From positions 1 to 52,041 of the IMG/VR virus record IMGVR_UViG_3300025836_000002: a stretch of DNA of 52,041 bases; one strand, written 5' to 3'. Both the position numbers and the translations under genes were made by a program. Source of the DNA: a virus (taxonomy: Duplodnaviria > Caudoviricetes). The notes beneath the pieces are model-generated. The model saw only the letters and a list, made by a program, of their open reading frames with translations. It searched no databases and was not told the origin of the DNA. Positions 17,800 through 24,147 of the stretch are shown one piece after another (the first letter of the stretch is position 1; every line of letters begins with the position of its first letter).

Positions 17800-18291
17800 T
17801 TAAACACGTTTATCAAAATTCAATTTTGCAAATTCTCCAAAATATTTAATTGCCATTTCGTCATAAACATGTGCTGCGTCTTCTTCGTTATTAAAAAGGC
17901 CAAAATAAATTTGTTTTCCATCTATTTGTATGTGTACTATCCATTTTTTGGTGCTCTTGTGCCAACATACACCCTTATAGACAGAAGAGTGATTCTTATT
18001 TGGTCCTCTATTCATTTGATTTTCGGATCTGGTACAAAACCTCAGATTTTCTTTCTGATTATTCAGTCCGTCACCATCTCTATGATCAATGTCTAATTTT
18101 AATGGATTGTCACCCATAATAAATTTGTGCATATACTGAAGATTCCGTTTACCATTAACCGTAACGCTTCTTGCTGCATAAAAAGTATTTTTACCCTTAA
18201 GTGCAAACCACTTGAACGCATTCGCTCTATCAAAATCACCATCGTCAACCAAAGCTACCTGTCCCTGAGTTAATTTAATCTCTTTCATCAT
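17800..18291 (-). CDS. HNH-AP2 homing endonuclease
   Basis: [45 protein letters not shown]; start trimmed to MMKEIKLTQG. Confidence 0.9.
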   Translation of the reverse strand: MMKEIKLTQGQVALVDDGDFDRANAFKWFALKGKNTFYAARSVTVNGKRNLQYMHKFIMGDNPLKLDIDHRDGDGLNNQKENLRFCTRSENQMNRGPNKNHSSVYKGVCWHKSTKKWIVHIQIDGKQIYFGLFNNEEDAAHVYDEMAIKYFGEFAKLNFDKRV

Positions 18292-19057
18292 TTTAATATA
18301 AATGCAAAGCCCCTCCGAATGTGTACCAGACAATCTTTGGGGCCTCATTCAACAATTAAGTTGAAATATCTTTATGATCTGGTACATCATATTGCAAATA
18401 TACAAAAAAATATTCTATTATAAAACATGTTTTCACAATATATGTGATATTCCCTGTTGCGATGCTCGCCGTTTTAGTATTCCCATGATTCGCTCCTGAT
18501 CTTTAATCTTTTGCGATATTTCAACTTGCATCTGATTCAATTCAATTAGCCGGAATCTCGTATTATCGTAAGCTCTTTGAATTTCAGTTTCCCTATTTTC
18601 GATTTTGGTTTTAAGATCGTCGGTCATATTTTACCTCTTTGAATATTCCATCTTCGCCACATTCCTGATCATATAGACTTAACCAGCAATTAAATTCGCC
18701 GTATTTGAAATAACACCCTTTGCAGTTGTTCGTTTCATCTGTTCCTGGTTCCGGAGTTGTTAATTTGACTTTTACCCCTTCAATCGTTTTAATTTCGCCT
18801 AATTTCATAATTATTTAGTTTTAAAATCATCACAATACCGATAATAACCACCATCATCATAATGCAGACCAGACGCACCCCACCTGTTTAAAAGCGGCAT
18901 CCTGAACATTACACGTTTACCTAATTTACATTTAGCATTTTCTTTGATCATTCCGTTTCCATCTAAGTGCGGCCATGTGAAATTTAAACATTCATTACAT
19001 TCTACTCGATTTGCTTTCATCTTCTAATTGTTTTAAAACTGATTCGTTGTGTTTGAT

Positions 19058-20777: not shown

Positions 20778-21481
20778 TAGTGTCTAAAATTAGTAATTGC
20801 AACGTTTGATTTAGTTTCTTGGGTGTGCCCATTTGTTTTGGGTTTTATTTCTGGTAATTCTTGCAACCAACATTTTTGATTTATCCATGTTGATAGGTTT
20901 TTCCATTCAGGGCAAAAAGCGCCTAATTCAATAGATTTTTGTTTGTATTGTTTTTCCTTGATTAGTGCAGGAAGTAATAATTCAACATCTTCATTTTTGC
21001 ATTTTTTTTGGAAGTTTTTAAATTCAGGTTCAAAACCTCCTTTAGTTCCAGTATATTGTTTTCTGAAAATTTCAAATTTCTCCTTTATTTCTTTAGTATT
21101 TACAATTACATTTTCATTTTCAATTAGGTTATCGGTAGGATAACCATTAGGTTTATTTTCTTTTTTAGGTCTTCCGCCCATAACTCCATTATTTCTACGA
21201 CTTTGAATAAAATTATCCCTTTTTTCAATTTCCTGCTCAAGTCTTTCGTTGAAAAATAAACCCTTTTCGTCCTGTTTAAACTTTAACCTAAGAGTATCCG
21301 AAAATAAACCTACCAATAACCTTATGGTTTCCTCACTCATTCGGCCTGTCTGATGCTGGTAACATATTAGTGTTATATATCTTCCTCTTTCCTCAAATGG
21401 CATTGCAAGTGTGCCAACGAGAAAGTCCTGACTGTAGAATAAAAATGCCGGATCTTTCATAGTTTTAAAATTCAAAATCAT
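20777..21481 (-). CDS. Replication initiator (DUF1376/YdaU-like N-terminus)
   Basis: DPAFLFYSQDF..ERGRYITLIC..GGRPKK; C-terminal STWINQKCW; adjacent to dnaB. Confidence 0.75.
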   Translation of the reverse strand: MILNFKTMKDPAFLFYSQDFLVGTLAMPFEERGRYITLICYQHQTGRMSEETIRLLVGLFSDTLRLKFKQDEKGLFFNERLEQEIEKRDNFIQSRRNNGVMGGRPKKENKPNGYPTDNLIENENVIVNTKEIKEKFEIFRKQYTGTKGGFEPEFKNFQKKCKNEDVELLLPALIKEKQYKQKSIELGAFCPEWKNLSTWINQKCWLQELPEIKPKTNGHTQETKSNVAITNFRH

Positions 21482-22007
21482 TACTTTCGGGTTTTTTAAA
21501 TCCGGTCATTTTTACCAAATATTCAACTTGATATCTAAGTTCGTTGATTCTTGAGTGAAGTTCAATATCGTTTTCTTCTGCCCTATTTTTGGCGATAATA
21601 TCCGCAAATCCATCATCAAATCCAATGGCGGCCACGTATGACATAGCAGTATTAAATTCATCCATATTTTCAGAATTTACGGTATTGCATATTCCTTCAG
21701 AAAACCAATGAATAACATTATCATCAAACGGATTTAAAAATTCTATCAATTGCTTATATCTCTTTGGGATAGCAAAAACAACCTTCTCTTTTGGTACGTG
21801 TTCTTTTGTATGACAATCTTCGCATAATACCTGAAATACATCATTATCATATTGCCATGGTTCGCGTCCTTTTAAATAAAACCTATGATGAACATGTAGC
21901 GTTTTTTCTTCCGACTTGCATTCATCACATTTGAATTTGTGAATATCCAAAATTTCCAACCGTTTCTTTTGCCATTTAGGACTTTTTAATTTGTCTGAAT
22001 AAGTCAT
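21465..22007 (-). CDS. HNH-domain protein
   Basis: PKWQKKRLEIL..CDEC..LHVHH..LCEDCH. Confidence 0.8.
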   Translation of the reverse strand: MTYSDKLKSPKWQKKRLEILDIHKFKCDECKSEEKTLHVHHRFYLKGREPWQYDNDVFQVLCEDCHTKEHVPKEKVVFAIPKRYKQLIEFLNPFDDNVIHWFSEGICNTVNSENMDEFNTAMSYVAAIGFDDGFADIIAKNRAEENDIELHSRINELRYQVEYLVKMTGFKKPESNDFEF

Positions 22008-22216: not shown

Positions 22217-22444
22217 ATTTTTATTACAATTTAATCCAATTAAAACCGGAACATTTCATCCGGTTCACATTGCAATATTACTAAATTAATTTGACAATTC
22301 AAACAAATTTTAAAAATAAATTCAGGCCTTAGCGATGTAGCAGTTTACCCGACTTTCACACCCAACTTAATGTCAGTATTCGGGAACCTGAATAATTAAG
22401 GCCGTATGCAGTTCTAATGGTATGCAGTCCGGCACATTTTGAAT

Positions 22445-22550
22445 CAGTACAGCTCTAAGCCGCCATCTTCATTTCAATTGTTTTGCCTATTATTGGCTGT
22501 AATACCCTCAATTAATCTACTTTTCTGCCAATCAAAACCAAACATCCCCC
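22445..22550 (-). ncRNA. ssrA: tmRNA coding piece with tag ORF (A)GKTIEMKMAA*; 3' end uncertain
   Basis: Starts GGGGGATGTTTGGTTTTGATTGGCAG; pairs 7 bp with ATCCTCC including G3-U70; tag frame 22487-22455 after ATAATA. Confidence 0.85.
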
Positions 22551-22629
22551 AAATGTTTCCTGTTTTCCCAATCGGGCCGGCTCCAGAATTCCGGCGGTCT
22601 TTCGACGTTACAAATTGGCGATTTGTATG

Positions 22630-22692
22630 TGGAGGATCGGGGAGTCGAACCCCGGTCTTAACAGTTTTTCAAATAACTTCAACGGATATTAT
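22630..22692 (-). ncRNA. ssrA: tmRNA acceptor piece (3' half of the tRNA-like domain), permuted gene
   Basis: Minus strand ...CTGTTAA GAC CGGGG TTCGACT CCCCG ATCCTCC A: T-arm, acceptor 3' strand and discriminator A. Confidence 0.85.
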
Positions 22693-22698
22693 GAGGTA

Positions 22699-22706
22699 CA
22701 AATATA
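22699..22706 (-). promoter_or_regulatory. Bacteroidota -7 promoter element upstream of the tmRNA
   Basis: TATATTTG matches TAnnTTTG, just upstream of the acceptor piece. Confidence 0.65.
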
Positions 22707-22710
22707 GTAA

Positions 22711-22908
22711 TTATCTAAACACGTTCGGACATTTCCGATCAAAAAATTCATTTCGTGGCTCCCCGTGTGACTTAATAAATGCCGCTCTTTTAGCGTACAT
22801 CGTTTTTGAATGCGATCTTTTAACTGTCACACATGATGATGATAAAAATGCAATTAGTGTTAATAATGAAATAAGCAATAATAATTTTTGCATTGTTTTT
22901 TCTTTCAT
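22711..22908 (-). CDS. Small putative lipoprotein
   Basis: Hydrophobic signal followed by LSSSC lipobox-like sequence. Confidence 0.5.
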   Translation of the reverse strand: MKEKTMQKLLLLISLLTLIAFLSSSCVTVKRSHSKTMYAKRAAFIKSHGEPRNEFFDRKCPNVFR

Positions 22909-23092
22909 GTTAAATAGTTTTTAAAAGTAAATAAAAGCATCCTGCAAAAATAGTCAGTATCACAATGATCATGTATTTGATCTACCTTAAATTTGATTCC
23001 AGGTTTTGATAGCATTTTTCTTGGTACATTAATCCTTTAGTTTGTGGTAAACAATCGTTAAAATGGTGACTAATAAATGTAAAAGTTTTAAT

Positions 23093-23685: not shown

Positions 23686-24147
23686 TTACAACACATACGG
23701 AAAATTTAATTTGGCAAATTCTCCAAACAGCTCCTTTGCTTTTATATCATAAGCGGAGGCGGCATCTTCTTCTGTTTTAAACGTCCCTAAATAAATTCTT
23801 TGTTTATTGGCAGAAATGGCAGCCCTAACAGATTTACCAGAAAAATAAACACCCAAATAATTTGATTTTCCAAAAGGATTATGGTTTCTTCTATTTTGGA
23901 TGCTTGTGCAGTTTCTCATGTTGTATTTTTGACAATTTAATCCATTGTGATCAATGTGATCTACTTCATTATCGTCTAATGTATTCATTATGATTCTGTG
24001 CATCAATATTGATTTGCCATTTTCTTTTCTTTCTGCATAATAAGTGTTTTTATGCTTATGCGCATACCAATTAAATTGATTAAGATAATCAAAATCATCA
24101 TCATCAACATGAACAGCCTTGTTTTGTGTGAGGAAAATAGTTTTCAT
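23686..24147 (-). CDS. HNH-AP2 homing endonuclease
   Basis: [48 protein letters not shown]. Confidence 0.9.

What the first reader, a model, noticed from the sequence alone, without database searches (positions are those of the whole stretch)
22445..22706. Phage-encoded, circularly permuted (two-piece) tmRNA gene
Seen on the minus strand, in order: TATATTTG promoter (22706-22699); acceptor piece ending GAC-CGGGG-TTCGACT-CCCCG-ATCCTCC-A (22630); a 79-nt spacer; then the normal tmRNA 5' end GGGGGATGTTTGGTTTTGA (22550) and a tag frame GGC AAA ACA ATT GAA ATG AAG ATG GCG GCT TAG (GKTIEMKMAA*). The pieces pair: a 7-bp acceptor stem with the G3-U70 alanine determinant, TTGGCAG/CTGTTAA, and GGGTATTA/TAATATCC. 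The 3' half therefore precedes the 5' half. Established: permuted ssrA is classically described in Alphaproteobacteria, some Cyanobacteria and Betaproteobacteria, and some mitochondria, while Bacteroidota hosts generally have one-piece genes. Inference: an independent phage-borne permutation that uses host SmpB, AlaRS, RNase P and CCA-adding enzyme (no smpB here, CCA not encoded) to rescue or redirect stalled ribosomes.
Basis: partly seen in the sequence, partly recalled or inferred. Interest (0 to 1): 0.9.

Follow-up and report, generated by a model that had tools for sequence, protein, structure and literature searches.

The report
Two-piece tmRNA gene in Bacteroidota phage
A complete 52-kb phage of Bacteroidota carries a real, conserved ribosome-rescue RNA gene (tmRNA) whose two halves are encoded in swapped order; such phage genes have been reported before, but this compact pseudoknot-free clade has not been described as far as I could find.

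Summary
ARAGORN calls a permuted tmRNA (22364-22719, minus strand, tag GKTIEMKMAA). Rfam's tmRNA_permuted model passes its cut-off narrowly (49.8 vs 47 bits).

I found 12 further distinct contigs with the same gene. A covariance model built without the window scores it 132 bits. Over 14 distinct sequences, 24 of 38 base pairs, including those joining the two pieces, show compensatory changes, against 8.9 in shuffles. The tag frame changes mostly synonymously. The spacer varies from 46 to 211 nt.

A Bacteroidota host is supported. Sampled Bacteroidota genomes hold only one-piece tmRNA: 144 of 151 standard, 0 of 151 permuted.

The novelty claim is weakened. Two-piece tmRNAs in phages were published in 2022 (PMC9004378). 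RefSeq crAss-like phages carry annotated tmRNAs that ARAGORN also calls permuted.

What looks undescribed is a Bacteroidota-phage clade only 57-65 nt from 5' end to resume codon, so with no room for pseudoknot 1, and with a conserved spacer hairpin.

An independent permutation event is unresolved. No RNA data were found.

The parts
22699..22706 (-). Promoter -7 box TATATTTG (Bacteroidota sigma-A type, TAnnTTTG). The implied transcription start is about 22694-22692 (inferred).
   Evidence: Sequence. A TAnnTTTG box lies 43-52 nt upstream of the T stem in 13 of 13 family contigs. The consensus and its -12 to -5 position come from PMC9723704 (passages). On the gene strand, 16 of 51 boxes fall in the 17.7% of bases that are intergenic (p 0.013), against 4 of 33 on the other strand.
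22630..22691 (-). Acceptor piece (3' half of the tRNA-like domain). P2 3' strands: TAATATCC 22691-22684, GTTGA 22683-22679, TTATTT 22676-22671, CTGTTAA 22664-22658. T arm 22654-22638. Acceptor 3' strand 22637-22631. Discriminator A 22630.
   Evidence: Pairing and covariation.
22551..22629 (-). Intervening sequence of 79 nt, presumed to be removed. It contains a hairpin at 22627-22609 with the conserved loop CGCCA (22620-22616).
   Evidence: Spacer length varies from 46 to 211 nt among 13 contigs and is largely unalignable. Contigs of two other metagenome runs cover both pieces but not 22546-22613. The CGCCA motif is present in 12 of 13 contigs, TGCCA in 1, with differing stems.
22500..22550 (-). 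5' part of the coding piece. Acceptor 5' strand GGGGGAT 22550-22544 (G3 at 22548). D-loop analogue TGGTTTTGA 22540-22532. P2 5' strands: TTGGCAG 22531-22525, AAGTAG 22522-22517, TTAAT 22515-22511, GGGTATTA 22507-22500.
   Evidence: (cofold).
22455..22487 (-). Tag reading frame. Resume codon GGC at 22487-22485, peptide GKTIEMKMAA, stop TAG at 22457-22455. Only 12 nt separate the last P2 strand from the resume codon, so there is no room for pseudoknot 1.
   Evidence: ARAGORN. Synonymous changes among homologues. Distance from 5' end to resume codon.
22450..22462 (-). Hairpin CGGCT-TAG-AGCTG that presents the stop codon in a 3-nt loop (helix-5-like).
   Evidence: Sequence and fold. The L065/L111 homologues have CTGCA-TAG-TGCAG, two compensatory pairs. 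There is a weaker alternative in L043 and none obvious in L045.
22312..22449 (-). 3' tail of the coding piece, with uncertain extent. A long hairpin is closed by ATTCAGG (22393-22387) and CCTGAAT (22326-22320), followed by a T-rich run at 22319-22312.
   Evidence: The closing stem is kept, with changes, in L021, L061 and L091. But the fold is no more stable than shuffles (z -0.47). The terminator scan flags nothing on this strand. One contig of a relative keeps 22438-22337 while lacking the tmRNA gene.

Best explanation
This is a functional, circularly permuted (two-piece) tmRNA gene carried as its own small transcription unit by a virulent-looking 52-kb myophage of Bacteroidota. Transcription starts a few bases before 22691, from a Bacteroidota-type -7 box. 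The precursor folds so that the upstream acceptor piece pairs with the downstream coding piece. The pairing uses a 7-bp acceptor stem (G3-U70, discriminator A) and about 26 bp of interrupted helix 2. Host RNase P would cut 5' of G22550. A host 3' tRNA-processing nuclease would cut after A22630. The host CCA-adding enzyme would then complete the 3' end, removing the 79-nt spacer (inferred from how known two-piece tmRNAs mature). Host AlaRS would charge the RNA with alanine, and host SmpB and EF-Tu would deliver it to stalled ribosomes. Translation would resume at GGC 22487 and add A-GKTIEMKMAA. Shown here: the anatomy, conservation, covariation of the inter-piece helices, purifying selection on the tag frame, the Bacteroidota affiliation, and the absence of smpB. 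Inferred: the processing, charging and trans-translation, and the benefit to the phage. The most likely benefit is extra ribosome-rescue capacity when infection or host defence nucleases create non-stop mRNAs. A second possible benefit is a tag that keeps the C-terminal Ala-Ala degradation signal but lacks the Tyr-containing middle seen in the sampled host tags.
For: ARAGORN reports a permuted tmRNA with the tag GKTIEMKMAA. RF04321 scores 49.8 bits against a cut-off of 47 over the full model. Model R1 was built from five homologues without the window; it scores the window 132.2 bits (E 3e-28) and L021 135.3 bits, while no permuted tmRNA outside the family exceeds 56.2 bits in those searches. 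Three crAss-like genes later scored 37.9-60.6 bits. The close relative L021 shows 2 compensatory pairs in the T stem and 2 in the acceptor stem, next to an unalignable spacer of 178 vs 79 nt. On 14 distinct sequences, 93.4% of cells are paired against 80.2% in shuffles (0 of 500 reach it). Twenty-four of 38 pairs change on both sides, against 8.9 in shuffles and 1-5 in slid controls. G3-U70 is kept in 14 of 14. Tag frame: L045 vs L236 differ by 5 synonymous and 0 non-synonymous changes; L065 vs L043 by 3 synonymous and 1 non-synonymous, plus TAG to TAA; the window vs L061 by AAG/AAA. All 13 family contigs keep a TAnnTTTG box 43-52 nt upstream of the T stem. Host: 7 of 7 confirmed TerL relatives in genomes are Bacteroidota MAGs, and the best cultured relatives are Bacteroides and Flavobacterium phages. 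No SmpB and no tyrosine integrase match is in the window. The same gene order was assembled independently in 12 other contigs, and contigs of two other runs join the two pieces across a different spacer.
Against: There is no RNA evidence. No RNA run holds the stretch, so processing, charging and tagging are untested. The Rfam score is only 2.8 bits above its cut-off. None of the lineage-specific models comes near its own cut-off; the best is beta_tmRNA at 31.4 vs 84 bits, and that match is local. Pseudoknot 1, normally next to the resume codon, has no room here, so efficient resumption is not guaranteed. The alignments used for pair counts were fitted to the model, which favours the structure, and 5 of the 14 rows were the model's seed. 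R1 failed to report family member L043, which has a 211-nt spacer. The 3' end of the coding piece is undefined. The benefit to the phage is speculation.
Confidence: 0.85

Rival explanations
1. The RNA is made and binds host SmpB or ribosomes, but it acts mainly as a competitor or re-router of host trans-translation. It would titrate SmpB or replace the host tag, so that phage or host products escape or change their proteolytic fate, rather than simply adding rescue capacity.
For: The phage tags (GKTIEMKMAA, GNxFEMKAAA, GK..RMAV) differ from all 32 sampled Bacteroidota tags, which carry Tyr before the final (A/R/S)(L/M)AA. There is no room for pseudoknot 1. A phage tRNA-like-domain-only tmRNA that inhibits host tmRNA is described for mycobacteriophage DS6A in PMC4131195 and PMC11915505 (passages).
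Against: The tag frame, stop codon and resume context are conserved with synonymous changes, which a pure decoy would not need. The C-terminal Ala-Ala is kept in 9 of 13 contigs; the other 4 end Ala-Val.
Confidence: 0.1
2. It is a remnant of integration-site biology: a copy of the 3' end of a host tmRNA gene (attP-type fragment) next to unrelated sequence, or a decaying pseudogene.
For: tmRNA genes are frequent integration sites, and fragments occur in prophages (PMC9004378 and PMC11915505, passages). The T arm plus acceptor strand is identical or near-identical to that of many Bacteroidota tmRNAs; the L043 string matches 13 of 29 sampled.
Against: The 5' half follows and covaries with the 3' half. 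The window has no tyrosine integrase match. The record has terminal repeats and is rated complete. The gene has its own conserved promoter box.
Confidence: 0.02
3. The swapped order is an assembly artefact.
For: The window is a metagenome assembly. The one run holding 98% of the sampled words may be its source.
Against: The same order is found in 12 other distinct contigs from IMG/VR and JGI metagenomes and in three fetched crAss-like GenBank records. Contigs of two other runs join coding piece to acceptor piece across the spacer.
Confidence: 0.01

Closest known systems
Two-piece (permuted) tmRNAs of Alphaproteobacteria, some Betaproteobacteria and Cyanobacteria (Rfam RF01849, RF01850, RF01851, merged in RF04321)
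   Same: The gene order is acceptor piece, spacer, coding piece. The tRNA-like domain is assembled from two RNAs. G3-U70 is present, and the tag ends in Ala-Ala. The window passes RF04321, which was built from those three lineages (model description in PMC11915505).
   Different: The window fails the lineage-specific models; the best is beta at 31.4 vs 84 bits. The distance from 5' end to resume codon is 63 nt, against 78-118 nt in 63 other viral permuted genes. The hairpin that RF04321 places after helix 2 is deleted in the window's alignment. The carrier is a Bacteroidota phage, not one of those bacterial groups.
Two-piece ssrA of marine phages (OM43 phage Melnitz and pelagimyophages; Buchholz et al. 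2022, PMC9004378)
   Same: A phage-encoded permuted tmRNA without a phage smpB being reported. It was found with ARAGORN and is proposed to support or redirect host translation quality control. That paper counted 53 unique two-piece structures among 18,146 phage genomes (passages).
   Different: Those are alphaproteobacterial-type genes in about 140-kb T4-like phages, and one sits under a glutamine riboswitch. The alpha/beta-type viral genes I fetched score 92-108 bits on RF04321 (5 of 5 tested) against 49.8 here, and at most 56 bits on the family model R1. Whether any Bacteroidota phage is in their Table S1 could not be seen, because supplements are closed.
Annotated 'transfer-messenger RNA, SsrA' features of crAss-like phages (Crassvirales, Suoliviridae: cr10_1, cr50_1, cr273_1, cr272_1, cr130_1, cr60_1)
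   Same: They belong to Bacteroidota-associated phages. ARAGORN of 3 fetched genes permuted. The resume codon is GGC and the tags start GN. The distance from 5' end to resume codon is 59-65 nt. RF04321 scores 49.6 and 60.3 bits for 2 of 3.
   Different: They are distant in sequence: R1 gives 38-61 bits, against 96-189 within the family. Their tags are longer and different. They sit in about 98-kb podovirus-like genomes. The records call them tmRNA without saying permuted.
Standard one-piece tmRNA of Bacteroidota cells
   Same: They share the acceptor and T-arm sequences. Some share a GGC resume codon in an AUAAC(U/A) context. In 20 of 29 sampled genes, as here, a C follows the discriminator but CCA is not encoded.
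   Different: They are one-piece, with 89-102 nt to the resume codon (n=36). Tags are of the types GE.NYALAA, AN..Y..(L/M)AA and DNNYSY.LAA. RF00023 passes its cut-off in 144 of 151 sampled genomes and RF04321 in 0 of 151.

Membership tests
tmRNA (general) | tRNA-like domain: 7-bp acceptor stem with G3-U70, discriminator A, T arm with a T-loop | tested here: met
   Sequence. G3-U70 is kept in 14 of 14 distinct sequences, and acceptor and T stems are 100% paired.
tmRNA (general) | mRNA-like part: resume codon, short tag frame ending in hydrophobic or Ala residues, in-frame stop | tested here: met
   ARAGORN gives the tag GKTIEMKMAA*. Changes among homologues are mostly synonymous.
tmRNA (general) | Pseudoknot 1 between helix 2 and the resume codon | tested here: not met
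   Only 12 nt lie between the last helix-2 strand and GGC. The distance from 5' end to resume codon is 63 nt, against 78-118 in other permuted genes and 89-102 in Bacteroidota standard genes. The RF04321 hairpin at model positions 134-148 is gapped out. That this pseudoknot can be dispensable is recalled knowledge and was not checked here.
tmRNA (general) | Alanylation, SmpB binding and trans-translation | not testable with these tools
   No RNA run holds the stretch. No biochemical data are available.
Permuted (two-piece) tmRNA, Rfam RF04321 | Gene order of 3' tRNA-like half, intervening sequence, then 5' half plus tag; score at or above the gathering cut-off | tested here: met
   Order read directly. 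The score is 49.8 vs 47 bits over the full model. ARAGORN marks the gene with an asterisk; that the asterisk means permuted is recalled from ARAGORN usage.
Permuted (two-piece) tmRNA | Precursor cleaved into two RNAs held together by base pairing | not testable with these tools
   Indirect evidence only. The spacer is variable and largely unalignable (46-211 nt), while the inter-piece helices covary.
Alpha-, beta- or cyano-type two-piece tmRNA (RF01849, RF01850, RF01851) | Score at or above the lineage model's cut-off (lineage-specific helices and pseudoknot 1) | tested here: not met
   The best is beta_tmRNA at 31.4 vs 84 bits, covering the tRNA-like domain only. Two lower-scoring matches of the same clan were suppressed by the tool.
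attP-type tmRNA 3' fragment of a temperate phage | Only the 3' end of the gene is present, associated with an integrase | tested here: not met
   The 5' half and tag are present and covary. There is no PF00589 match in the window.

The most novel reading that the evidence does not exclude
Bacteroidota phages, including this 52-kb myophage group and crAss-like phages, share a fourth, phage-restricted lineage of two-piece tmRNA. It would have arisen by its own permutation event, from a Bacteroidota-type or phage-borne one-piece tmRNA rather than by transfer from alpha, beta or cyano lineages. It is the most reduced tag-encoding tmRNA seen in this survey: no room for pseudoknot 1, about 26 bp of helix 2, and a conserved CGCCA-loop hairpin in the spacer that may act as a processing signal. 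Its hosts keep a standard one-piece tmRNA, so infected cells would hold two tmRNAs with different tags competing for one SmpB.
Probability: 0.3. Interest if true: 0.65.

Novelty: new variant of a known kind. Interest (0 to 1): 0.42.

Why it matters
It shows that phages of Bacteroidota, including relatives of the abundant gut crAss-like phages, bring their own ribosome-rescue RNA. The RNA has a different architecture and a different tag from the host's. That gives a natural test of how little RNA a tag-encoding tmRNA needs, with no room for pseudoknot 1. It raises the question of what a phage gains by adding a second tagging system during infection. It also offers a compact, easily recognised marker for this phage group: a TAnnTTTG box, then acceptor piece, CGCCA hairpin and coding piece. 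It does not change the known list of what tmRNA does, and the gene class is found by standard annotation tools.

Tried and rejected
1. blastn of the 551-nt region against 50,697 deposited phage records gave no match. Only shorter homologue queries reached the crAss-like tmRNAs, through the T arm.

2. The exact 24-nt T-arm/acceptor string of the window gave 0 IMG/VR hits. A 16-nt helix-2 string gave 39 loci, of which only 2 (L065, L112) hold the gene; the rest look like chance.

3. No RNA holder was listed for the stretch, so expression and processing could not be examined.

4. The whole-window count of TANNTTTG is not enriched: 84 against 75 +/- 8.6, with 18 of 100 shuffles as high. Only the strand and intergenic split gives modest support.

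5. I first read a second TAnnTTTG promoter just downstream of the gene. The pattern scan shows there is none there, so I dropped it.

6. A structured 3' domain is not supported: the fold has z -0.47 and the scan finds no terminator on the gene strand.

7. The T-arm/acceptor string was tried as a marker of origin and is not diagnostic. The same string occurs in 35 of 78 other viral permuted genes and in 13 of 29 Bacteroidota standard genes. The resume-codon context is equally generic.

8. A tree of 108 tmRNA tRNA-like-domain segments (84 columns) was unresolved. AU tests reject none of three groupings: all permuted together p 0.56, family plus crAss-like p 0.82, family plus Bacteroidota standard p 0.67.

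9. The family was not found in prokaryote genomes. R1 gave 0 strong hits in 151 Bacteroidota genomes; the 2 hits near 31 bits are standard tmRNA genes. RF04321 was over its cut-off in 0 of the 7 genomes holding TerL relatives. A strict pattern gave 0 hits in the genome-contig collection.

10. The first covariance model was too long to calibrate, so a shorter alignment was used. R1 did not report L043, which has a 211-nt spacer.

12. Literature searches for permuted tmRNA in Bacteroidota or crAss-like phages found no description. Supplementary tables that might list such genes (Table S1 of PMC9004378, Table S2 of PMC11915505) could not be opened.

Full report
**Observation.**
- A TATATTTG box lies at 22706-22699.
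- The acceptor piece ends with GAC, the T stem CGGGG/CCCCG around the loop TTCGACT, the acceptor strand ATCCTCC and the discriminator A at 22630.
- A 79-nt spacer follows.
- Then come GGGGGAT at 22550 and the frame GGC AAA ACA ATT GAA ATG AAG ATG GCG GCT TAG at 22487-22455.

ARAGORN finds one RNA gene in the whole window, a permuted tmRNA at 22364-22719 with the tag GKTIEMKMAA. Rfam's general permuted model RF04321 matches 22455-22688 end to end at 49.8 bits, against a cut-off of 47 (E 7e-07). The lineage-specific models do not pass. The best is beta_tmRNA at 31.4 vs 84 bits, covering only the tRNA-like domain.

**Setting.** The window is a complete IMG/VR virus record of 52,041 bp with direct terminal repeats. 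Every ORF with a phage-family match lies on the minus strand. PHROGs matches include tail sheath, tape measure, baseplate hub, head protease, large terminase, DnaB-type helicase, and helicase/methylase. Near the gene are a dNMP phosphatase-like protein, recombination proteins and HNH endonucleases. There is no SmpB match and no tyrosine integrase match. No tRNA gene is present.

**Host.**
- The large terminase has 7 confirmed relatives in the species-genome collection, out of 37 pattern candidates. All 7 are in Bacteroidota MAGs: Bacteroidia, Parafilimonas, Flavobacteriales, Chitinophagaceae, Mucilaginibacter, Chitinophagia and Bacteroides, at 57-75% identity.
- Among deposited phages the best matches are Bacteroides phage BS-TP1 and Flavobacterium phages, all under 60% identity.
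- The box upstream of the gene fits the Bacteroidota sigma-A -7 consensus TAnnTTTG, placed at -12 to -5 (PMC9723704, passages).
- The motif is not enriched in the window as a whole. On the gene strand, however, 16 of 51 copies fall in the 17.7% of bases that are intergenic (p 0.013), against 4 of 33 on the other strand.

**Homologues.**
- A relative with 91% identical DnaB (L021) carries the same gene with the same tag. Against the window, its T stem changes from CGGGG/CCCCG to GTGGG/CCCAC, and its acceptor stem from GGGGGAT/ATCCTCC to GGGGGTG/CACCTCC. That is four compensatory pairs. Helix 2, the tag and the promoter are nearly identical, while the spacer is 178 nt and unalignable.
- Pattern scans of IMG/VR, followed by ARAGORN in a script, gave 122 tmRNA calls over 187 loci plus the window. 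Ninety were permuted and 32 standard, duplicates included.
- Most permuted calls are of a different type, with tags beginning AND. Five fetched examples score 92-108 bits on RF04321, three also pass RF01850 and one RF01849.
- The window's own family comprises the window, L021, L061, L091 (identical to L110), L043, L065, L111 and L045.
- A metagenome scan added 9 loci, all family members by R1 and ARAGORN. They add four further distinct contigs, and two of these carry the new tag GKHINFYQPSFRMAV.

**Family model and covariation.** I built covariance model R1 from five homologues, leaving the window out.
- It scores the window 132.2 bits (E 3e-28) and L021 135.3 bits. No permuted tmRNA outside the family exceeds 56.2 bits in those searches; three crAss-like genes later scored 37.9-60.6 bits.
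- It failed to report L043, which has the longest spacer.
- On the model-fitted alignment of 7 sequences, 96.1% of cells pair and 8 pairs change on both sides, against 2.7 in shuffles.
- With 14 distinct sequences, including two crAss-like genes, 93.4% of cells pair against 80.2% in shuffles (0 of 500 reach it). Twenty-four of 38 pairs change on both sides, against 8.9 in shuffles and 1-5 in slid controls. G3-U70 is invariant.
- These alignments lean towards the model's structure, and five rows are seed sequences. The L021 comparison, made with MAFFT alone, shows the same compensation.

**Tag frame.** The frame is under selection.
- L045 and L236 differ by five synonymous and no non-synonymous changes.
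- L065 and L043 differ by three synonymous and one non-synonymous change, plus TAG to TAA.
- The window and L061 differ by AAG/AAA.
- The stop codon sits in the 3-nt loop of a 5-bp hairpin: CGGCT-TAG-AGCTG in the window, CTGCA-TAG-TGCAG in L065 and L111. L043 has only a weaker alternative and L045 none obvious.

**Architecture.** The distance from the first base of the coding piece to the resume codon separates the groups:

| Group | Distance (nt) | n |
|---|---|---|
| This family | 57-63 | 8 |
| crAss-like permuted genes | 59-65 | 3 |
| Other viral permuted genes | 78-118 (median 81) | 63 |
| Bacteroidota standard genes | 89-102 | 36 |

- In the window only 12 nt separate the last helix-2 strand from GGC. 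The hairpin that RF04321 expects there is gapped out. So there is no room for pseudoknot 1.
- The acceptor piece starts within a few bases of the predicted transcription start.
- The spacer (46-211 nt) carries a hairpin whose stem differs between contigs: ACAAAT/ATTTGT, CTAAT/ATTAG, CTTAA/TTAAG, CGCTT/AAGTG, ACACT/AGTGT. Its loop motif CGCCA is kept in 12 of 13 contigs, with TGCCA in the other. Its role is unknown.
- The 3' end of the coding piece is not defined. The fold there is unremarkable and no terminator is flagged on the gene strand. In L065, L230 and L231 a tRNA gene follows closely.

**Hosts' own tmRNA.** In 151 sampled Bacteroidota genomes, RF00023 passes its cut-off in 144 and RF04321 in none.
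- All 32 loci examined hold one-piece genes. Six of the 30 top-scoring loci have tags beginning with Gly.
- Twenty of 29 of these genes do not encode CCA but have a C after the discriminator, as the phage genes do. CCA addition by the host is therefore the normal route in this phylum.

**Assembly.** Contigs of two other peat-metagenome runs cover both pieces but not the spacer, and join 22540 to 22628 across different sequence. One 206-nt contig from a glacier metagenome joins 22438 to 22697 with 35 other letters. That is a relative that keeps the promoter and downstream flank but lacks the gene. In L043 and L045 a promoter-like stretch is repeated on both sides of the gene. These are hints that the gene moves as a cassette.

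**Prior knowledge.**
- Phage two-piece tmRNAs are in print. Buchholz et al. 2022 described one in phage Melnitz and counted 53 unique two-piece structures in 18,146 phage genomes, 50 of them from marine or aquatic phages (PMC9004378, passages).
- The 2025 tmRNA database lists 79 phage sequences and built RF04321 (PMC11915505, passages).
- blastn with family members reached annotated 'tmRNA, SsrA' features in crAss-like phages. At least six such records exist.
- ARAGORN calls all three that I fetched permuted, with tags starting GN. Two of the three pass RF04321.
- I found no paper that describes permuted tmRNA in Bacteroidota or crAss-like phages (searches; passages read). The supplementary tables that might list them are closed.

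**Origin.** The T arm and acceptor sequences and the resume-codon context are shared with Bacteroidota standard genes, but also with other permuted genes. On an 84-column tree the family sits with two crAss-like genes and five viral one-piece tmRNAs (SH-aLRT 95). AU tests reject none of the three groupings tried.

**Verdict.** This is a genuine permuted tmRNA gene under selection, in a Bacteroidota phage that depends on host factors. It belongs to a published kind. It is also part of a compact clade, without room for pseudoknot 1, that appears undescribed. Function in infection is inferred, not shown.

Noticed in passing
window 22609-22627 (loop 22616-22620); also L061, L065, L043, L236, L240: A small hairpin lies in the spacer just after the acceptor 3' end. 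Its stem sequence differs between contigs, but the loop motif CGCCA is kept in 12 of 13 family contigs (TGCCA in L045). In L021 and L043 an insertion of roughly 80 nt pushes it away from the acceptor end. It may be a processing signal.
   Followed up: partly
window 22438-22697; run X7, record 19: One 206-nt contig from a glacier metagenome joins the promoter flank to the downstream flank with 35 unrelated letters in place of the whole tmRNA gene. In L043 and L045 a promoter-like stretch is repeated on both sides of the gene. The gene may behave as an insertable cassette.
   Followed up: partly
window 21465-22007, 23686-24147, 17800-18348 (minus strand): Three HNH endonuclease ORFs (PHROGs 119 and 99) lie within 5 kb of the tmRNA gene, two of them flanking it. 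They could be homing endonucleases linked to local gene mobility.
   Followed up: no
L230 872-1038 and L231 130-308 (crAss-like phages cr50_1, cr10_1): The Rfam families RAGATH-22 and RAGATH-9 match above their cut-offs a few hundred bases upstream of the crAss-like permuted tmRNA genes.
   Followed up: no
L231 spacer (cr10_1) and L230: The spacer of the crAss-like permuted tmRNAs contains a second T-arm-like element (GAGG-TTCGACT-CCTC). A tRNA gene overlaps or directly follows the ARAGORN tmRNA call.
   Followed up: no
IMG/VR loci L034-L150: Permuted tmRNAs are common in IMG/VR contigs. One 30-nt T-arm pattern alone returned at least 119 loci. Tags such as ANDNDSFADIRLAA (20 loci) and ANDNVAFALAA (12 loci) recur. 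Several viral one-piece tmRNAs encode unusually long tags of 20-33 residues.
   Followed up: no
window 22439-22924 (plus strand): A 161-aa TTG-started ORF on the opposite strand overlaps the whole tmRNA gene. It is almost certainly spurious and could mislead automatic annotation.
   Followed up: no
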